Shown: piece by piece, positions 14,873 to 42,700 of the stretch
How the letters are laid out: each line of letters opens with the position of its first letter
Numbering within the stretch: the first letter of the stretch is position 1
Notes under the pieces: generated by a model
Database searches by the model: none
Told to the model about the DNA's origin: nothing
The model's input: the letters and a program-made list of their open reading frames with translations, nothing else
NCBI RefSeq assembly: GCF_009914755.1
Contig: NC_060929.1
Length of the DNA stretch: 64,000 nucleotides
Strand: one strand, 5' to 3'
DNA from: the human T2T-CHM13v2.0 reference genome, Homo sapiens
Translations under genes and position numbers: made by a program

Positions 14873-17800
14873 TCAGTTCCCACCTATGAGTGAGAATATG
14901 CGGTGTTTGGTTTTTTGTTCTTGCGATAGTTTACTGAGAATGATGGTTTCCAATTTCATCCATGTCCCTACAAAGGACATGAACTCATCATTTTTTATGG
15001 CTGCATAGTATTCCGTGGTGTATATGTGCCACATTTTCTTAATCCAGTCTATCATTGTTGGACATTTGGCTTGGTTCCAAGTCTTTGCTATTGTGAATAA
15101 TGCCACAGTAAACATACGTGTGCATGTGTCTTTATAGCAGCATGATTTATAATCCTTTGGGTATATACCCAGTAATGGGACGGCTGGGTCAAATGGTATT
15201 TCTAGTTCTAGATCCCTGAGGAATTGCCACACTGACTTCCACAATGGTTGAACTAGTTTACAGTCCCACCAACAGTGTAAAAGTGTTCCTATTTCTCCAC
15301 ATCCTCTCCAGCACCTGTTGTTTCCTGACTTTTTAATGATTACCATTCTAACTGGTGTGAGATGGTATGTCATTGTGGTTTTGATTTGCATTTCTCTGAT
15401 GGCCAGTGATGATGAGCATTTTTTCATGTGTCTTTTGGCTGCATGAATGTCTTCTTTTGAAAAGTGTCTGCTCATATCCTTCGCCCACTTTTTGATGGGG
15501 TTGTTTGTTTTTTGCTTGTAAATTTGTTTGAGTTCCCTGTAGATTCTGGATATTAGCCCTTTGTCAGATGAGTAGGTTGCGAAAATTTTCTCCCATTGTG
15601 TAGGTTGCCTGTTCACTCTGATGGTAGTTTCTTTTGCTGTGCAGAAGCTCTTTAGTTTAATTAGAGGTCAAACGTTTAAGTCTTTAATCCATCTTGAATT
15701 GATTTTTGTATAAGGTGTAAGGAAGGGATCCAGTTTCAGCTTTCTACATAAGGCTAGCCAGTTTTCCCAGCACCATTTATTAAATAGGGAATCCTTTCCC
15801 CATTGCTTGTTTTTCTCAGGTTTGTCAAAGATCAGATAGTTGTAGATATGCGGCGTTATTTCTGAGGGCTCTGTTGTGTTCCATTGATCTATATCTCTGT
15901 TTTGGTACCAGTACCATGCTGTTTTGGTTACTGTAGCCTTGTAGTATAGTTTGAAGTCAGGTAGTGTGATGCCTCCAGCTTTGTTCTTTTGGCTTAGGAT
16001 TGACTTGGTGATGCAGGCTCTTTTTTGGTTCCATATGAACTTGAAAGTAGTTTTTTCCAATTCTGTGAAGAAAGGCATTGGTAGCTTGATGGGGATGGCA
16101 TTGAATCTGTAAATTACCTTGGGCAGTATGGCCATTTTCACGATATTGATTCTTCCTACCCATGAGCATGGAGTGTTCTTCCATTTGTTTGTATCCTCTT
16201 TTATTTCCTTGAGCAGTGGTTTGTAGTTCTCCTTGAAGAGGTCCTTCACATCCCTTGTAAGTTGGATTCCTAGGTATTTTATTCTCTTTGAAGCAATTGT
16301 GAATGGGAGTTCACTCATGATTTGGCTCTCTGTTTGTCTGTTGTTGGTGTATAAGAATGCTTGTGATTTTTGTACATTGATTTTGTATCCTGAGACTTTG
16401 TTGAAGTTGCTTATCAGCTTAGGGAGATTTTGGGCTGAGATGATGGGGTTTTCTAGCTATACAATCATGTCATCTGCAAACAGGGACAATTTGACTTCCT
16501 CTTTTCCTAATTGAATACCCTTTATTTCCTTCTCCTGCCTAATTGCCCTGGCCAGAACTTCCAACACTATGTTGAATAGGAGTGGTGAGAGAGGGCATCC
16601 CTGTCTTGTGCCAGTTTTCAAAGGGAATGCTTCCAGTTTTTGCCCATTCAGTATGATATTGGCTGTGGGTTTGTCATAGATAGCTCTTATTCTTTTGAAA
16701 TACATCCCATCAATACCTAATTTATTGAGAGTTTTTAGCAAGAAGTGTTATTGAATTTTGTCAAAGGCCTTTTCTGCATCTATTGAGATAATCATGTGGT
16801 TTTTGTCTTTGGCTCTCTTTATATGCTGGATTACATTTATTGATTTGCGTATATTGAACCAGCCTTGCATCCCAGGGATGAAGCCCACTTGATCATGGTG
16901 GATAAGCTTTTTGATGTGCTGCTGGATTCGTTTTGCCAGTATTTTATTGAGGATTTTTGCATCAATATTCATCAAGGATATTGGTCTAAAATTCTCTTTT
17001 TTGGTTGTGTCTCTGCGCGGCGTTGGTATCAGAATGATGCTGGCCTCATAAAATGAGTTAGGGAGGATTCCCTCTTTTTCTATTGATTGGAATAGTTTCA
17101 GAAGGAATGGTACCAGTTCCTCCTTGTACCTCTGGTAGAATTCGGCTGTGAATCCATCTGGTCGTGGACTCTTTTTGTTTGGTAAGCTATTGATTATTGC
17201 CACAATTTCAGCTCCTGTTATTGGTCTATTCAGAGATTCAACTTCTTCCTGGTTTAGTCTTGGGAGAGTGTATGTGTCCAGGAATTTATCCATTTCTTCT
17301 AGATTTTCTAGTTTATTTGCGTAGAGGTGTTTGTAGTATTCTCTGATGGTAGTTTGTATTTCTGTGGGATCGGTGGTGATATCCCCATTATCATTTTTTA
17401 TTGGGTCTATTTGATTCTTCTCTCTTTTTTTCTTTATTAGTCTTGCTAGCGGTCTATCAATTTTGTTGATCCTTTCAAAAAACCAGCTCCTGGATTCATT
17501 AATTTTTTGAAGGGTTTTTTGTGTCTCTATTTCCTTCAGTTCTGCTCTGATCTTAGTTATTTCTTGCCTTCTTCTAGCTTTTGAATGTGTTTGCTCTTGC
17601 TTGTCTAGTTCTTTTAATTGTGATGTTAGGGTGTCAATTTTGGATCTTTCCTGCTTTCTGTTGTGGGCATTTAGTGCTATAAATTTCCTTCTACACACTG
17701 CTTTGAATGTGTCCCAGAGATTCTGGTATGTTGTGTCTTTGTTCTCGTTGGTTTCAAAGAACATCTTTATTTCTGCCTTCATTTTGTTATGTACCCAGTA

Positions 17801-39746: not shown

Positions 39747-42700
39747 TCAATTCCCACCTATGAGTGAGAACATGCGGTGTTTGGTTTTTTGTCCTTGCGA
39801 TAGTTTGCTGAGAATGATGGTTTCCAGCTTCATCCATGTCCCTACAAAGGACATGAACTCCTCCTGTTTTATGGCTGCATAGTATTCCACGGTGTATATG
39901 TGCCACATTTTCTTAATCCAGTCTATCATTGTTGGACATTTGGCTTGGTTCCAAGTCTTTGCTATTGTGAATAGTGCCACAATAAACATACATGTGCATG
40001 TGCCTTTATAGCAGCATGATTTATAATCCTTTGGGTATATACCCAGTAATGGGATGGCTGGATCAAATGGTATTTCTAGTTCTAGATCCCTGAGGAATTG
40101 CCACACCAACTTCCACAATGGTTGAACTAGTTTACAGTCCCACCAACAGTGTAAAAGTGTTCCTATTTCTCCACATCCTCTCCAGCACCTGTTGTTTCCT
40201 GACTTTTTAATGATCACCATTCTAACTGGTGTGAGATGGTATGTCATTGTGGTTTTGATTTGCATTTTTCTGATGGCCAGTGATGATGAGCATTTTTTCA
40301 TGTGTTTTTTGGCTGCATAAATGTCTTCTTTTGAAAAGTGTCTGTTCATATCCTTTGCCCACTTTTTGATGGGGTTGTTTGTTTTTTTCTTGTAAATTTG
40401 TTTGACTTCATTGTAGATTCTGGATATTAGCCCTGTGTCAGATGAGTAGGTTGCAAAAATTTTCTCCCATTCTGTAGGTTGCCTGTTCACTCTGATGGTG
40501 GTTTCTTTTGCTGTGCAGAAGCTCTTTAGTTTAATTAGATCCCATTTATCAATTTTGGCTTTTGTTGCCATTGCTTTTGGTGTTTTAGACATGAAGTCCT
40601 TGCCCGTGCCTATACCTGAATGGTATTGCCTAGGTTTTCTTCTAGGGTTTTTATGGTTTTAGGTCTAACCTGTAAGTCTTTAATCCATCTTGAATTAATT
40701 TTTGTATAAGGTGTAAGGAAGGGATTCAGTTTCAGCTTTCTACGTATGGGTAGCCAGTTTTGCCAGCACCATTTATTAAATAGGGAATCCTTTCCCCATT
40801 TCTTCTTTTTGTCAGGTTTGTCAAAGATCAGAGAGTTGTAGATGTGCGGCATTATTTCTGAGGGCTCTGCTCTGTTCCATTGGTCTATATCTCTGTTTTG
40901 GTACCAGTACCATGCTGTTTGGTTACTGTAGCCTTGTAGTATAGTTTGAAGTCAGGTAGCATGATGCCTCCAGCTTTGTTCTTTTGGCTTAGGATTGACT
41001 TGGCGATGCAGGCTCTCTTTTGGTTCCATATGAACTTGAAAGTAGTTTTTTCCAATTCTGTGAAGAAAGGCATTGGTAGATTGATGGGGATGGCATTGAA
41101 TCTATATATTACCTTGGGCAGTATGGCCATTTTCATGATACTGATTTTTCCTACCCATGAGCATGGAATGTTCTTCCATTTGTTTGTATCCTCTTTTATT
41201 TCATTGAGCAATGGTTTGTAGTTCTCCTTGAAGAGGTCCTTCACATCCCTTGTAAGTTGGATTCCTAGGTATTTTATTCTCTTTGAAGCAATTGTGAATG
41301 GGAGTTCACTCATGATTTGGCTCTCTGTCTGTTATTGATGTATAAGAATGCTTGTGATTTTTGCACATTGATTTTGTATCGTGAGACTTTGCTGAAGTTG
41401 CTTATCAGCTTAAGGAGATTTTGGGCTGAGATGATGGGGTTTTCTAGATATACAATCATGTCATCTGCAAACAGGGACAATTTGACTTCCTCTTTTCCTG
41501 ATTGAATACCCTTTATTCCCTTCTCCTGCCTGATTGCCCTTGCCAGAACTTCCAACACTATGTTGAATAGGAGTGTTGAGAGAGGGCATCCCTGTCTTGT
41601 GCCAGTTTTCAAAGGGAATGCTTCCAGTTTTTATCCATTCAGTATGATATTGGCTGTGGGTTTGTCATAGATAGCTCTTATTATTTTGAGATATGTCCCA
41701 TCAACACCTAATTTATTGAGAGTTTTTAGCATGAAGGGTTGTTGAATTTTGTCAAAGGTCTTTTCTGCATCTGTTGAGATAATCATGTGGTTTTTGTCTT
41801 TGGTTCTTTTTGTATGCTGGATTACGTTTATTGATTTGCATATGTTGAACCAGCCTTGCATCCCAGGGAGGAAGCCCACTTGATCATGGTTGATAAGCTT
41901 TTTGATGTGTTGCTGGATTTGGTTTGCCAGTATTTTATTGAGAATTTTTGCATCAATGTTCATCAAGGATATTGGTCTAAAATTCTCTTTTTTGGTTGTG
42001 TCTCTGCCCGGCTTTGGTATCAGGATGATGCTGGCCTCCCTAAAATGAGTTAGGGAGGATTCCCTCTTTTTCTATTGATTGGAATAGTTTCAGAAGGAAT
42101 GGTAACAGTTCCTCCTTGTACCTCTGGTAGAATTTGGCTGTGAATCTATGTGGTCCTGGACTTTTTTTGGTTGGTAGGCTATTAATTGTTGCCTCAATTT
42201 CAGATCCTGTTATTGTTCTATTCAGAGATTCAACTTCTTCCTGGTTTAGTCTTGGGAGAGTGTATGTGTCAAGGAATTTATCCATTTCTTCTAGATTTTC
42301 TAGTTTATTTGCGTAGAGGTGTTTATAGTATTCTCTGATGGTAGTTTGTATTTCTGTGGGATGGGTGGTGATATCCCCTTTATCATTTTTTATTGGGTCT
42401 ATTTGATTCTTCTCTCTTTTCTTCTTTATTAGTCTTGCTAGCGGTCTATCAATTTTGTTGATCTTTTCAAAAACACCAACTCCTGGATTCATTGATTTTT
42501 TGAAGGCTTTTTTGTGTCTTTGTTTCCTTCAGTTCTGCTCTGATCTTAGTTATTTCTTGCCTTCTTCTAGCTTTTGAATGTGTTTGCTCTTGCTTCTCTA
42601 GTTCTTTTAATTGTGATGTTAGGGTGTCAATTTTAGATCTTTCCTGCTTTCTCTTGTGGGCATTTAGTGCTATAAATTTCCCTCTACACACTGCTTTGAA

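What the first reader, a model, noticed from the sequence alone, without database searches (positions are those of the whole stretch)
15061..42570. L1-A also shares private variants with L1-B, making L1-B a mosaic hub; a tract switch maps within 10 bp
Seen in the sequence: L1-A and L1-B are direct repeats offset by ~25 kb. On the + strand they share GACATTTGGCTTGG (~15070/~39944), GATGGTATGTCATTG (~15369/~40243), TTTTGAAAAGTGTC (~15461/~40335), GAACTTGAAAGTAG and GAAAGGCATTGG (16037-16081/41032-41076) and ATTGGGTCTATTTG (~17404/~42395). All three L1s carry AAAGCTAGAAGAAGG (KARRR; recalled consensus KASRR). In L1-B, G41070 is shared only with L1-A while A41080 is shared only with L1-C. Inference: a three-way conversion network was active after the youngest copy arrived, which would blur subfamily dating.
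Basis: partly seen in the sequence, partly recalled or inferred. Interest (0 to 1): 0.7.

Follow-up and report, generated by a model that had tools for sequence, protein, structure and literature searches.

The report
Neighbouring L1 repeats sharing rare variants
Three dead LINE-1 repeats lying within 43 kb of a human intron mostly agree with each other for ordinary family-tree reasons, but two of them clearly, and the third possibly, have copied short patches of sequence from one another.

Summary
A (14647-20560, -), B (39521-45668, -) and C (51605-57062, +) are three independent full-length L1PA insertions of different ages.

Most A=B agreement is trivial. At 90 of 93 A=B≠C sites, the shared state is the majority state in 55 other genomic L1 copies, so these are changes on C's branch. 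B looks like a "hub" mainly because it has the shortest branch.

A residue is not trivial:
- **All three copies:** the KARRR state occurs in 42 of 7,024 copies genome-wide, and three of those are A, B and C.
- **A and B:** they alone among 58 copies share three further rare states (at 40243, 40335 and 42396; about 0.27 expected).
- **B and C:** they share 18 such states. One 38-mer occurs nowhere else in the genome, and one tract is significant (p=0.0004).

A–B shows no tract. The fragment test gives p=0.69, and the diagnostic-site painting is clean. The "switch within 10 bp" haplotype also occurs in three unrelated copies.

Verdict: short-patch non-allelic gene conversion is well supported for B–C and only suggestive for A–B. 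This is a known kind of process. The mapped tract boundary is over-read.

The parts
14647..20560 (-). L1-A: full-length, ORF-broken L1PA element of the younger type. It lacks 128 bp of the 5'UTR and 122-123 bp of ORF2, and is inserted into an older L1 fragment.
   Evidence: Ends read. BLAST to B. Gaps (alignment columns 781-908 and 5050-5172). Its 401-bp stretch has 39 listed genomic matches at 99%. It sits mid-ladder in the tree beside L045. The longest stop-free stretch is 523 aa.
39521..45668 (-). L1-B: full-length, ORF-broken L1PA element of an older type. It retains the 5'UTR segment that A lacks. It is flanked by the target-site duplication TGAACATTT at 39515-39523 and 45670-45678.
   Evidence: Best genomic matches to its 401-bp stretch are 97%. 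It carries the old-type state at 45 of 47 scorable diagnostic sites.
51605..57062 (+). L1-C: slightly 5'-truncated, ORF-broken L1PA element, the most diverged of the three. It has a 647-bp internal deletion (B 39884-40530 absent).
   Evidence: Best genomic matches are 95-96%. It has the longest terminal branch, 0.047.
42538..42691 (-). Best-supported B-C conversion tract (C 54559-54712). It contains the KARRR base at B 42566 / A 17573 / C 54684. All three copies are identical over B 42537-42595.
   Evidence: This is the longest concordant run: 84 polymorphic sites, permutation p=0.0004. It includes a 161-bp exact B-C identity. The KARRR 27-mer occurs 42 times among 7,024 copies genome-wide, and 3 of those are A, B and C.
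41511..41548 (-). 38-mer carrying two B=C variants (41518 and 41541). Its C counterpart is 55696-55733.
   Evidence: It has exactly 2 matches in the 3.1-Gb genome, B and C. The two states are absent from 50 of 50 panel copies and from all 11 C-like copies that cover these sites (3 of 14 do not).
40243..40350 (-). A=B rare states at B 40243 and 40335 (A 15369 and 15461), plus an out-of-place old-type state in A at 40350 (A 15476). This is a candidate micro-patch or micro-patches. C is deleted here.
   Evidence: 0 of 52 and 0 of 53 panel copies carry them. Genome-wide counts are 116 of 13,126 and 499 exact 25-mers. A and B differ at 4 sites between and around them: 40268, 40306, 40319 and 40345.
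42396..42396 (-). A=B rare transversion at a CpG (A 17404).
   Evidence: 0 of 40 panel copies carry it. The 27-mer has 47 exact matches genome-wide.
41018..41079 (-). 62-bp exact A=B identity (A 16023-16084) carrying G41038 and G41070. It ends at the B=C state A41080.
   Evidence: The run ranks 8th of 376. Each G is common: 14 of 55 and 13 of 55 panel copies. By my tally, each G is seen once among the 5 old-type and 14 C-like copies. The 41080-A 27-mer occurs in 37 copies. The joint G41070+A41080 27-mer occurs in 4 copies, B and 3 others.

Best explanation
A, B and C are three separate retrotransposition events of successive L1PA subfamilies. A is the younger type, and B and C are older types. 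They lie in an intron of CDC42SE2. Nearly all of the A=B agreement is ordinary descent: it reflects changes on C's long branch or states common in the family. B looks like a hub because its own branch is the shortest and because it lies physically between the other two. On top of this, short-patch non-allelic (ectopic) gene conversion has moved tens to about 150 bp at a time between neighbouring copies. B and C are inverted and 6 kb apart, and they have exchanged repeatedly across about 3 kb of ORF2/ORF1. A is in direct orientation, 19 kb from B. It probably took part in one to three micro-patches: around 42545-42566, around 40335-40350, and possibly 41038-41070 into B. What is shown: the insertions are independent, most sharing is ordinary, rare-variant sharing is in excess, and there is a B-C tract. 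What is inferred: the mechanism is gene conversion, A took part, and the direction and date of any transfer.
For: **Independent insertions.** Only L1-internal sequence of B aligns to A or C. B's flanks 38501-39520 and 45669-46500 find nothing there. B has its own target-site duplication.

**Different subfamilies.** A lacks a 128-bp 5'UTR segment at B positions 761-888. This is where passages of PMC5860796 place the 129-bp ZNF93-site segment lost between L1PA3 and L1PA2/1. The tree is a ladder, with A in the middle and B+C at the old end.

**Ordinary sharing.** The three-way counts are 248 / 207 / 127 for sites where C, A or B is the odd one out. At 90 of 93 A=B≠C sites the A=B state is the panel majority. 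A is only one of about 40 genomic copies at 97% to B's 401-bp stretch. It is no closer to B (94.8%) than 58 other copies (91-95%) over up to 3.3 kb.

**B-C exchange.**
- Exclusive doubletons number 9, the top of 1,653 pairs. They number 9 again, the top of 105 pairs, in an independent 2 kb.
- One 38-mer is unique to B and C genome-wide.
- The 41080 state occurs in only 37 copies.
- The shared rare sites sit inside the longest identical runs of 161, 122, 111 and 77 bp.
- None occurs before the first 27 C-private sites at the 3' end, and the runs test gives p=0.019.
- The fragment test gives p=0.0004.

**A's involvement.**
- A-B has 3 exclusive doubletons. A's 55 panel partners give 0 or 1 (mean 0.16). 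B's give 0 to 2 (mean 0.27). Poisson P(≥3 | 0.27)=0.003 by my arithmetic.
- The three states are rare genome-wide, at 116 of 13,126, 499 copies and 47 copies.
- They are unlinked elsewhere. None of 21 other 40243 carriers listed on C1-C3 lies beside a 40335 carrier. None of 45 other 42396 carriers lies beside a listed 40243 carrier. I compared the lists by eye.
- The KARRR base (0.6%) is in all three copies.
- Two of A's five out-of-place old-type states (40350 and 42545) lie 15 and 21 bp from rare shared states.

**Distance.** Sharing falls with distance in the 3.3-kb panel region: B-C 9, A-B 3, A-C 0. This is as reported for non-allelic conversion between Alu copies (passages of PMC6598467).
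Against: **No A-B tract.** The longest concordant run spans 40 polymorphic sites, p=0.69. A keeps its own type at 41 of 46 scorable diagnostic sites and B at 45 of 47. These exception counts match control copies (L045 4, L053 4, L018 7, L008 5).

**Differences inside the candidate patch.** A and B differ at 3 sites between the two rare shared states 40243 and 40335. One tract cannot explain both.

**No replication.** In the independent 2-kb stretch (B 42800-44800), A-B has 1 exclusive doubleton, like 21 other pairs. The two A=B=C-only sites there are CpG decays.

**Other weaknesses.**
- 42396 is at a CpG.
- The whole-element runs test is only marginal: 383 runs against 403.5 ± 11.1, P=0.037, with longest runs not above chance.
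- B and C still differ at about 5.6% of sites in the exchanged region. Any exchange is therefore old or very patchy.
- The panels were ascertained as best matches and are biased towards young, little-decayed copies. Only 14 C-like copies of 1 kb could be fetched.
Confidence: 0.55

Rival explanations
1. A is not involved at all. The A=B rare states are independent recurrent mutations plus common family polymorphisms. Only B and C have exchanged sequence.
For: There is no A-B tract (p=0.69) and the diagnostic-site painting is clean. There is no A-B excess in the second 2 kb. Each shared state also exists in 42 to 499 other copies, so each does recur. One of them is at a CpG. 39944, 41038 and 41070 are common variants. 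B's G41070+A41080 haplotype arose 3 times elsewhere.
Against: Three exclusive doubletons against a mean of 0.16-0.27 for 110 control pairs, none of which reaches 3. Three of the four states are transversions away from CpG or of the rare C-to-G kind. The 0.6% KARRR state is in all three neighbours. B carries both G41038 and G41070. By my tally, each is seen once among the 5 old-type and 14 C-like copies.
Confidence: 0.3
2. B is a mosaic hub in a three-way conversion network. A real tract boundary lies between 41070 (from A) and 41080 (from C).
For: B has G at both 41038 and 41070 inside a 62-bp exact identity with A, ranked 8th of 376. The identity ends at 41080, where B has a state seen in 37 copies genome-wide, one of them C. 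B shares rare states with both neighbours, whereas A and C share none exclusively.
Against: Both G states are common (14 and 13 of 55 panel copies), and 3 of 69 copies carry both. The joint G41070+A41080 27-mer exists in 3 unrelated copies. There are 116 such switches within 10 columns along the element. The hub pattern follows from B's short branch (127 private sites against 207 and 248) and from its middle position. No A-B tract is significant.
Confidence: 0.15
3. B and C share rare states by descent, not by conversion. Both would come from one rare source lineage, or B would be a retrotransposed daughter of C.
For: B and C are sisters in the tree. They share 18 exclusive states over about 3 kb. 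The 38-mer has no other carrier, as expected for a parent and a single daughter.
Against: The shared rare sites are absent from the 3' end: 0 before the first 27 C-private sites, with clustering p=0.019. They sit inside the longest identity runs. C has about 2.3 times B's singleton density, 21.9 against 9.5 per kb, where a parent and daughter should be equal. B has the younger state at several sites where C and old-type copies agree. L1 is not known to land next to its source (established knowledge, recalled), so two members of a two-member lineage lying 6 kb apart would be a coincidence.
Confidence: 0.1
4. Assembly or polishing artefact. Reads from one L1 would have been used to correct another.
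For: No call supports this. It is raised only because the copies are similar repeats.
Against: The copies are only 92-95% identical and are embedded in unique, different flanks. The shared states are isolated bases amid many retained differences. Mis-polishing would not produce that pattern.
Confidence: 0.02

Closest known systems
Non-allelic (ectopic) gene conversion between dispersed Alu elements
   Same: Independently inserted repeat copies of different subfamilies that lie close together share short stretches and non-consensus bases. The rate depends on distance and identity and is elevated within about 10 kb. I saw this in passages of PMC6598467 citing Aleshin & Zhi 2010 and Kass et al. 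1995. Here the closest pair, B-C at 6 kb, shares most, and the 31-kb pair A-C shares none exclusively.
   Different: The elements here are 6-kb L1s at 92-95% identity. Patches are small relative to element length. No whole-copy replacement or clear diagnostic-site mosaic is seen for A-B. My four literature searches listed no paper whose title or abstract reports a neighbour-homogenisation analysis specific to human L1. That is not proof of absence.
Linear succession of L1PA subfamilies (L1PA5 to L1PA1), including loss of the 129-bp ZNF93-binding 5'UTR segment
   Same: The tree of 45 copies is ladder-like. A lacks a 128-bp 5'UTR segment at the position described for the L1PA3 to L1PA2/1 deletion (passages of PMC5860796). 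Most A/B/C differences are subfamily states or private decay.
   Different: Subfamily succession cannot explain states that are rare genome-wide (42 to 116 copies), are unlinked elsewhere, and yet are shared by neighbours of different subfamilies. No Dfam or RepeatMasker call was available, so the names L1PA2/3/4/5 are my inference.
Mosaic polymorphism of Y-chromosomal LTRs by ectopic gene conversion
   Same: Clusters of derived bases are shared between particular repeat copies. I saw this in a passage of PMC6598467 citing Trombetta et al. 2016.
   Different: That case rests on population polymorphism data. Here only one haploid assembly was available.

Membership tests
Full-length primate L1 (L1PA) retrotransposon insertion | About 6 kb long, with a 5' end at the canonical 5'UTR start, a 3' A-rich tail and a target-site duplication | tested here: met
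   The ends were read. B has the 9-bp TSD TGAACATTT at 39515-39523 and 45670-45678. No clear TSD was seen for A or C. Lengths are 5,914, 6,148 and 5,458 bp, with internal deletions accounting for the shortfall.
Full-length primate L1 (L1PA) retrotransposon insertion | Thousands of related copies in the genome and an ORF2-type coding frame | tested here: met
   There are 7,024 and 13,126 exact matches to two 27-mers with one free base. The ORF2 frame reads ...[19 protein letters not shown]... in all three. All three have broken frames.
Younger L1PA type lacking the 129-bp ZNF93-site 5'UTR segment (L1PA2 / late L1PA3), for L1-A | Absence of the roughly 129-bp 5'UTR segment that is present in L1PA3/L1PA4 | tested here: met
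   A has a 128-column gap at B positions 761-888, which B and C retain. The position agrees with passages of PMC5860796: the segment contains position 851-852 and lies before 916-917 in L1PA3 numbering. The subfamily name was not checked against a repeat library.
Non-allelic gene conversion between repeat copies | The copies are independent insertions, not products of a segmental duplication | tested here: met
   The flanks of B find no match beside A or C. B has its own TSD. The copies differ in subfamily states and 5'UTR structure.
Non-allelic gene conversion between repeat copies | Shared bases that are rare in the family at large, in excess of chance | tested here: met
   B-C has 9 and 9 exclusive doubletons, the top of 1,653 and of 105 pairs, and a 38-mer unique to the pair. 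A-B has 3 against a control mean of 0.16-0.27, plus the KARRR base at 42 of 7,024. This is met strongly for B-C and weakly for A-B.
Non-allelic gene conversion between repeat copies | A contiguous tract of concordance longer than chance (GENECONV-type test) | tested here: inconclusive
   B-C is met: 84 polymorphic sites at 42538-42691, p=0.0004. A-B is not met (p=0.69) and A-C is not met (p=0.82).
Non-allelic gene conversion between repeat copies | A mosaic of subfamily-diagnostic sites within one copy | tested here: not met
   Across 48 diagnostic sites, A has the old-type state at 5 and B the younger state at 2. That is no more than control copies (0 to 7).
Non-allelic gene conversion between repeat copies | A change of state at the orthologous locus after insertion, from a cross-species or population comparison | not testable with these tools
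   No other primate genome or human haplotype panel is held. Only the window's own assembly could be searched.

The most novel reading that the evidence does not exclude
Rare single-base variants of old L1 copies are shared by physically neighbouring, independently inserted L1s throughout the human genome, out to about 200 kb. This would be pervasive short-patch ectopic conversion among L1s of 92-96% identity. It would systematically distort subfamily assignment and age estimates. This window would be one clear instance, with the three-way KARRR sharing as its signature.
Probability: 0.25. Interest if true: 0.55.

Novelty: new member of a known kind. Interest (0 to 1): 0.33.

Why it matters
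L1 copies are dated, and assigned to subfamilies, on the assumption that each copy decays independently after insertion. Patchy exchange between neighbours breaks that assumption locally. It makes copies look younger or older, and it creates false "shared derived" states. Here the effect is small: a few dozen bases out of 6 kb, and it does not change the subfamily reading of any of the three elements. The methodological lesson is larger. With three sequences and no outgroup, "private shared variants" and "mosaic hubs" arise automatically. Only genome-wide allele counts separate the 3% of sites that carry signal from the 97% that do not. The incidental genome-wide clustering of rare-variant carriers deserves a proper scan.

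Tried and rejected
1. **Segmental duplication of A/B or B/C.** Rejected, because no flank homology was found and B has its own TSD.

2. **A and B share rare states through a common minor source lineage.** Rejected, because the states are unlinked in other carriers. I compared the place lists by eye. Only the first 100 of 499 places and 100 of 116 places were listed, so this check is partial.

3. **B=C states as markers of an unsampled subfamily.** Rejected for those tested, with 37 copies and 2 copies. 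The other B=C states were checked only against the panels.

4. **A gapped pattern to count the joint 40243+40335 haplotype.** The joint genome-wide count is therefore unknown.

5. **Thirty 3.4-kb loci for C-like copies.** Smaller pieces were fetched instead. The C-type reference is therefore thin: 14 copies of 1 kb.

7. **Whole-element runs test of the three site patterns.** It gave only P=0.037, with no over-long runs. That is too blunt to detect patches.

8. **Linking A's and C's internal deletions (edges 9-11 bp apart) to a shared break.** Only short microhomologies were seen, and I did not pursue it.

9. **Subfamily naming.** No repeat library was available, so the names rest on relative order, the 5'UTR segment and singleton densities.

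Full report
**What is there**

The window holds three full-length, ORF-broken L1PA elements.
- A is at 14647-20560 on the - strand.
- B is at 39521-45668 on the - strand. It is flanked by the 9-bp duplication TGAACATTT at 39515-39523 and 45670-45678.
- C is at 51605-57062 on the + strand.

BLAST of B plus 1 kb of each flank against the window aligns only L1-internal sequence.
- To A: 93.7% over 4,130 bp, 94.1% over 1,019 bp and 85.7% over the 5'UTR.
- To C: 91.4% over 5,145 bp.
- B's flanks match nothing. The three are therefore separate insertions, not duplicates of a segment.

A lacks 128 bp of the 5'UTR (B positions 761-888) and 122-123 bp of ORF2. C lacks 647 bp of ORF2. The 5'UTR gap lies where passages of PMC5860796 place the 129-bp ZNF93-site segment, which is present in L1PA3/4 and lost in L1PA2/1. 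No element has an intact ORF2; the longest stop-free stretches are 523, 303 and 265 aa.

Every motif is at the stated place and is found only in A and B. The KARRR motif is in all three, in the ORF2 frame. G41070 is A=B and A41080 is B=C.

**Most of the sharing is ordinary**

In a MAFFT alignment of the three, 4,580 columns are identical. C is the odd one out at 248 columns, A at 207 and B at 127, and all three differ at 21. With three sequences and no outgroup, an A=B≠C site is simply a change on C's branch. B "shares with both" because its own branch is the shortest.

The three patterns are interleaved along the whole element.
- There are 383 runs against 403.5 ± 11.1 in shuffles (P=0.037).
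- The longest runs are not above chance.
- A switch between an A=B site and a B=C site within 10 columns occurs 116 times.

To polarise the sites I searched the window's own genome.
- A's 401-bp stretch has 39 listed matches at 99%.
- B's best matches are 97%, and A is just one of them.
- C's best matches are 95-96%.

From I obtained 58 other copies of about 3.4 kb. After dropping three duplicates (L047, L054, L060), 55 remained as a panel covering B 39521-42798.
- All 58 are 91-95% identical to B, and A is 94.8%.
- At the 93 A=B≠C sites in this region, the A=B state is at ≥90% in the panel at 81 sites, at 50-90% at 9, and in the minority at only 3: 41038, 41070 and 42396.
- A tree of the 45 copies with at least 2,400 covered sites is a ladder. 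A sits mid-ladder beside L045, and B and C are sisters at the old end. Terminal branches are 0.022, 0.025 and 0.047.

**The residue that is not ordinary**

There are 20 sites where A=B differs from the panel majority.
- Twelve carry states seen in 4 to 22 panel copies.
- Four are absent from the panel: 40243, 40335, 42396 and 42566. The last is the KARRR base, which C shares too.

Exact genome-wide counts for these four:

| Site | Copies with the state | Denominator or note |
|---|---|---|
| 40243 | 116 | of 13,126 (0.9%) |
| 40335 | 499 | exact 25-mers |
| 42396 | 47 | exact 27-mers |
| KARRR (42566) | 42 | of 7,024 (0.6%); 3 are A, B, C and a fourth lies 544 kb away |

The states are not linked in other carriers, as far as the listed places allow. 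None of 21 other 40243 carriers on C1-C3 lies beside a 40335 carrier. None of 45 other 42396 carriers lies beside a listed 40243 carrier. I compared the lists by eye, and the lists were truncated. A minor source lineage therefore does not explain them.

As a formal test, I counted states carried by exactly two of 58 copies.
- B-C has 9, the top of 1,653 pairs.
- A-B has 3; only 8 pairs reach 3 or more.
- A-C has 0.
- A's 55 panel partners give 46 zeros and 9 ones. B's give 42 zeros, 11 ones and 2 twos.
- With a mean of 0.27, P(≥3) is 0.003 by my arithmetic.

**B and C**

The B=C states I tested are truly rare.
- The 41080 state occurs in 37 copies.
- A 38-mer carrying 41518 and 41541 occurs only in B and C in 3.1 Gb.
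- Four of the B=C states are absent from all C-like copies that cover them: 11 copies at 41518, 41541 and 41576, and 12 at 41381. The 41080 state is in 1 of 14 C-like copies.

The 19 rare B=C sites all lie in 40844-42566.
- None occurs among the first 27 C-private sites at the 3' end.
- They cluster (runs test p=0.019).
- They sit in the longest exact identities, of 161, 122, 111 and 77 bp.

A GENECONV-style permutation test gives p=0.0004 for 42538-42691, the stretch that contains the KARRR base. An independent 2-kb stretch (B 42800-44800, 12-copy panel) again puts B-C on top with 9.

Descent from one source fits worse.
- The sharing is patchy.
- C has 2.3 times B's singleton density.
- B carries younger states where C agrees with old-type copies.

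**A and B: the tests that fail**

- The fragment test gives p=0.69 for A-B and 0.82 for A-C.
- At 48 sites where A's tree neighbours and the old-type copies differ, A has its own type at 41 and the old type at 5. B has the old type at 45 and the young type at 2. Control copies show 0 to 7 exceptions. No tract long enough to cover a diagnostic site has passed between A and B.
- A and B differ at 40268, 40306 and 40319, between the two rare shared states 40243 and 40335.
- In the second 2 kb, A-B has one exclusive doubleton, like 21 other pairs. The two sites where only A, B and C agree (44361 and 44546) are CpG-to-CpA decays.

Points in favour of A's involvement:
- Two of A's five out-of-place old-type states (40350 and 42545) lie 15 and 21 bp from rare shared states.
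- B carries both G41038 and G41070. By my tally, each is seen once among the 5 old-type and 14 C-like copies.

**The "switch within 10 bp"**

The 62-bp A=B identity at 41018-41079 ends at the B=C state 41080. However, the exact 27-mer with G41070 and A41080 occurs in 3 other copies on other chromosomes. The juxtaposition therefore arises without A or C and cannot be read as a mapped tract edge.

**Reading**

Ordinary L1PA succession explains about 97% of the A=B sites. Short-patch non-allelic gene conversion is well supported between B and C. For A it is suggestive: about even odds, leaning yes. Sharing falls with distance: B-C are 6 kb apart, A-B 19 kb and A-C 31 kb. This fits what passages of PMC6598467 report for Alu, where rates are elevated within 10 kb. 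Direction and date could not be determined.

**In passing**

Outside this window, carriers of three rare states form 9 pairs within 250 kb. Uniform placement predicts 0.37, or 0.64 after a local clustering factor of 1.72 measured on 100 majority-state copies. I fetched three such pairs. They are 92.1%, 95.5% and 96.0% identical and share 8, 1 and 2 panel-rare states. I could not tell whether old segmental duplications or conversion cause this.

**Literature seen**

- Passages of PMC5860796.
- Passages of PMC6598467.
- One passage each of bioRxiv 10.1101/429563 and PMC13192797.
- Otherwise search listings only.
- Subfamily ages and the lack of local L1 reinsertion are recalled, not checked.

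Noticed in passing
genome-wide (lists); loci L087-L092: Carriers of three rare L1 states form 9 pairs within 250 kb outside this window. Uniform placement predicts 0.37, or 0.64 with measured local clustering. Three fetched pairs are 92.1-96.0% identical and share 8, 1 and 2 panel-rare states. The cause (old segmental duplication or neighbour conversion) is undetermined, because flanks were not examined.
   Followed up: partly
window 15655-15666 (A junction) and 56704-56716 (C junction); B 39884-40530 and 40540-40661: The internal deletions of A (122-123 bp) and C (647 bp) have edges only 9-11 bp apart in L1 coordinates. Both lie at an AT-rich TTTAGTTTAATTAGA stretch with 3-4 bp microhomologies. 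Two A=B rare states lie 200-300 bp from this point.
   Followed up: partly
window 19370-20178, 19919-20140 and 44795-45994: The RefSeq 'enhancer' and 'silencer' features given with the finding fall on the 5'UTR/ORF1 ends of L1-A and L1-B (the elements' 5' ends are at 20560 and 45668). These functional-element calls are therefore L1 promoter regions.
   Followed up: no
window 13142-14646: L1-A is inserted into a much older L1 fragment that is 68-70% identical to B's ORF2.
   Followed up: no
G000:C5:132410635 (about 544 kb beyond the window): A fourth carrier of the rare KARRR 27-mer lies on the same chromosome arm, 544 kb from C.
   Followed up: no
L034 / L035 (G000:C12:64.12 and 64.18 Mb, opposite strands): Two panel copies 60 kb apart share 3 exclusive doubletons. 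They also share a concordant run of 158 polymorphic sites, p=0.017. This is another neighbouring pair with excess sharing.
   Followed up: no
window 19360/44361/52900 and 19549/44546/52704: In ORF1, A, B and C alone among 14 to 15 copies carry CpA at two CpG sites. Independent CpG decay is the likeliest cause.
   Followed up: partly
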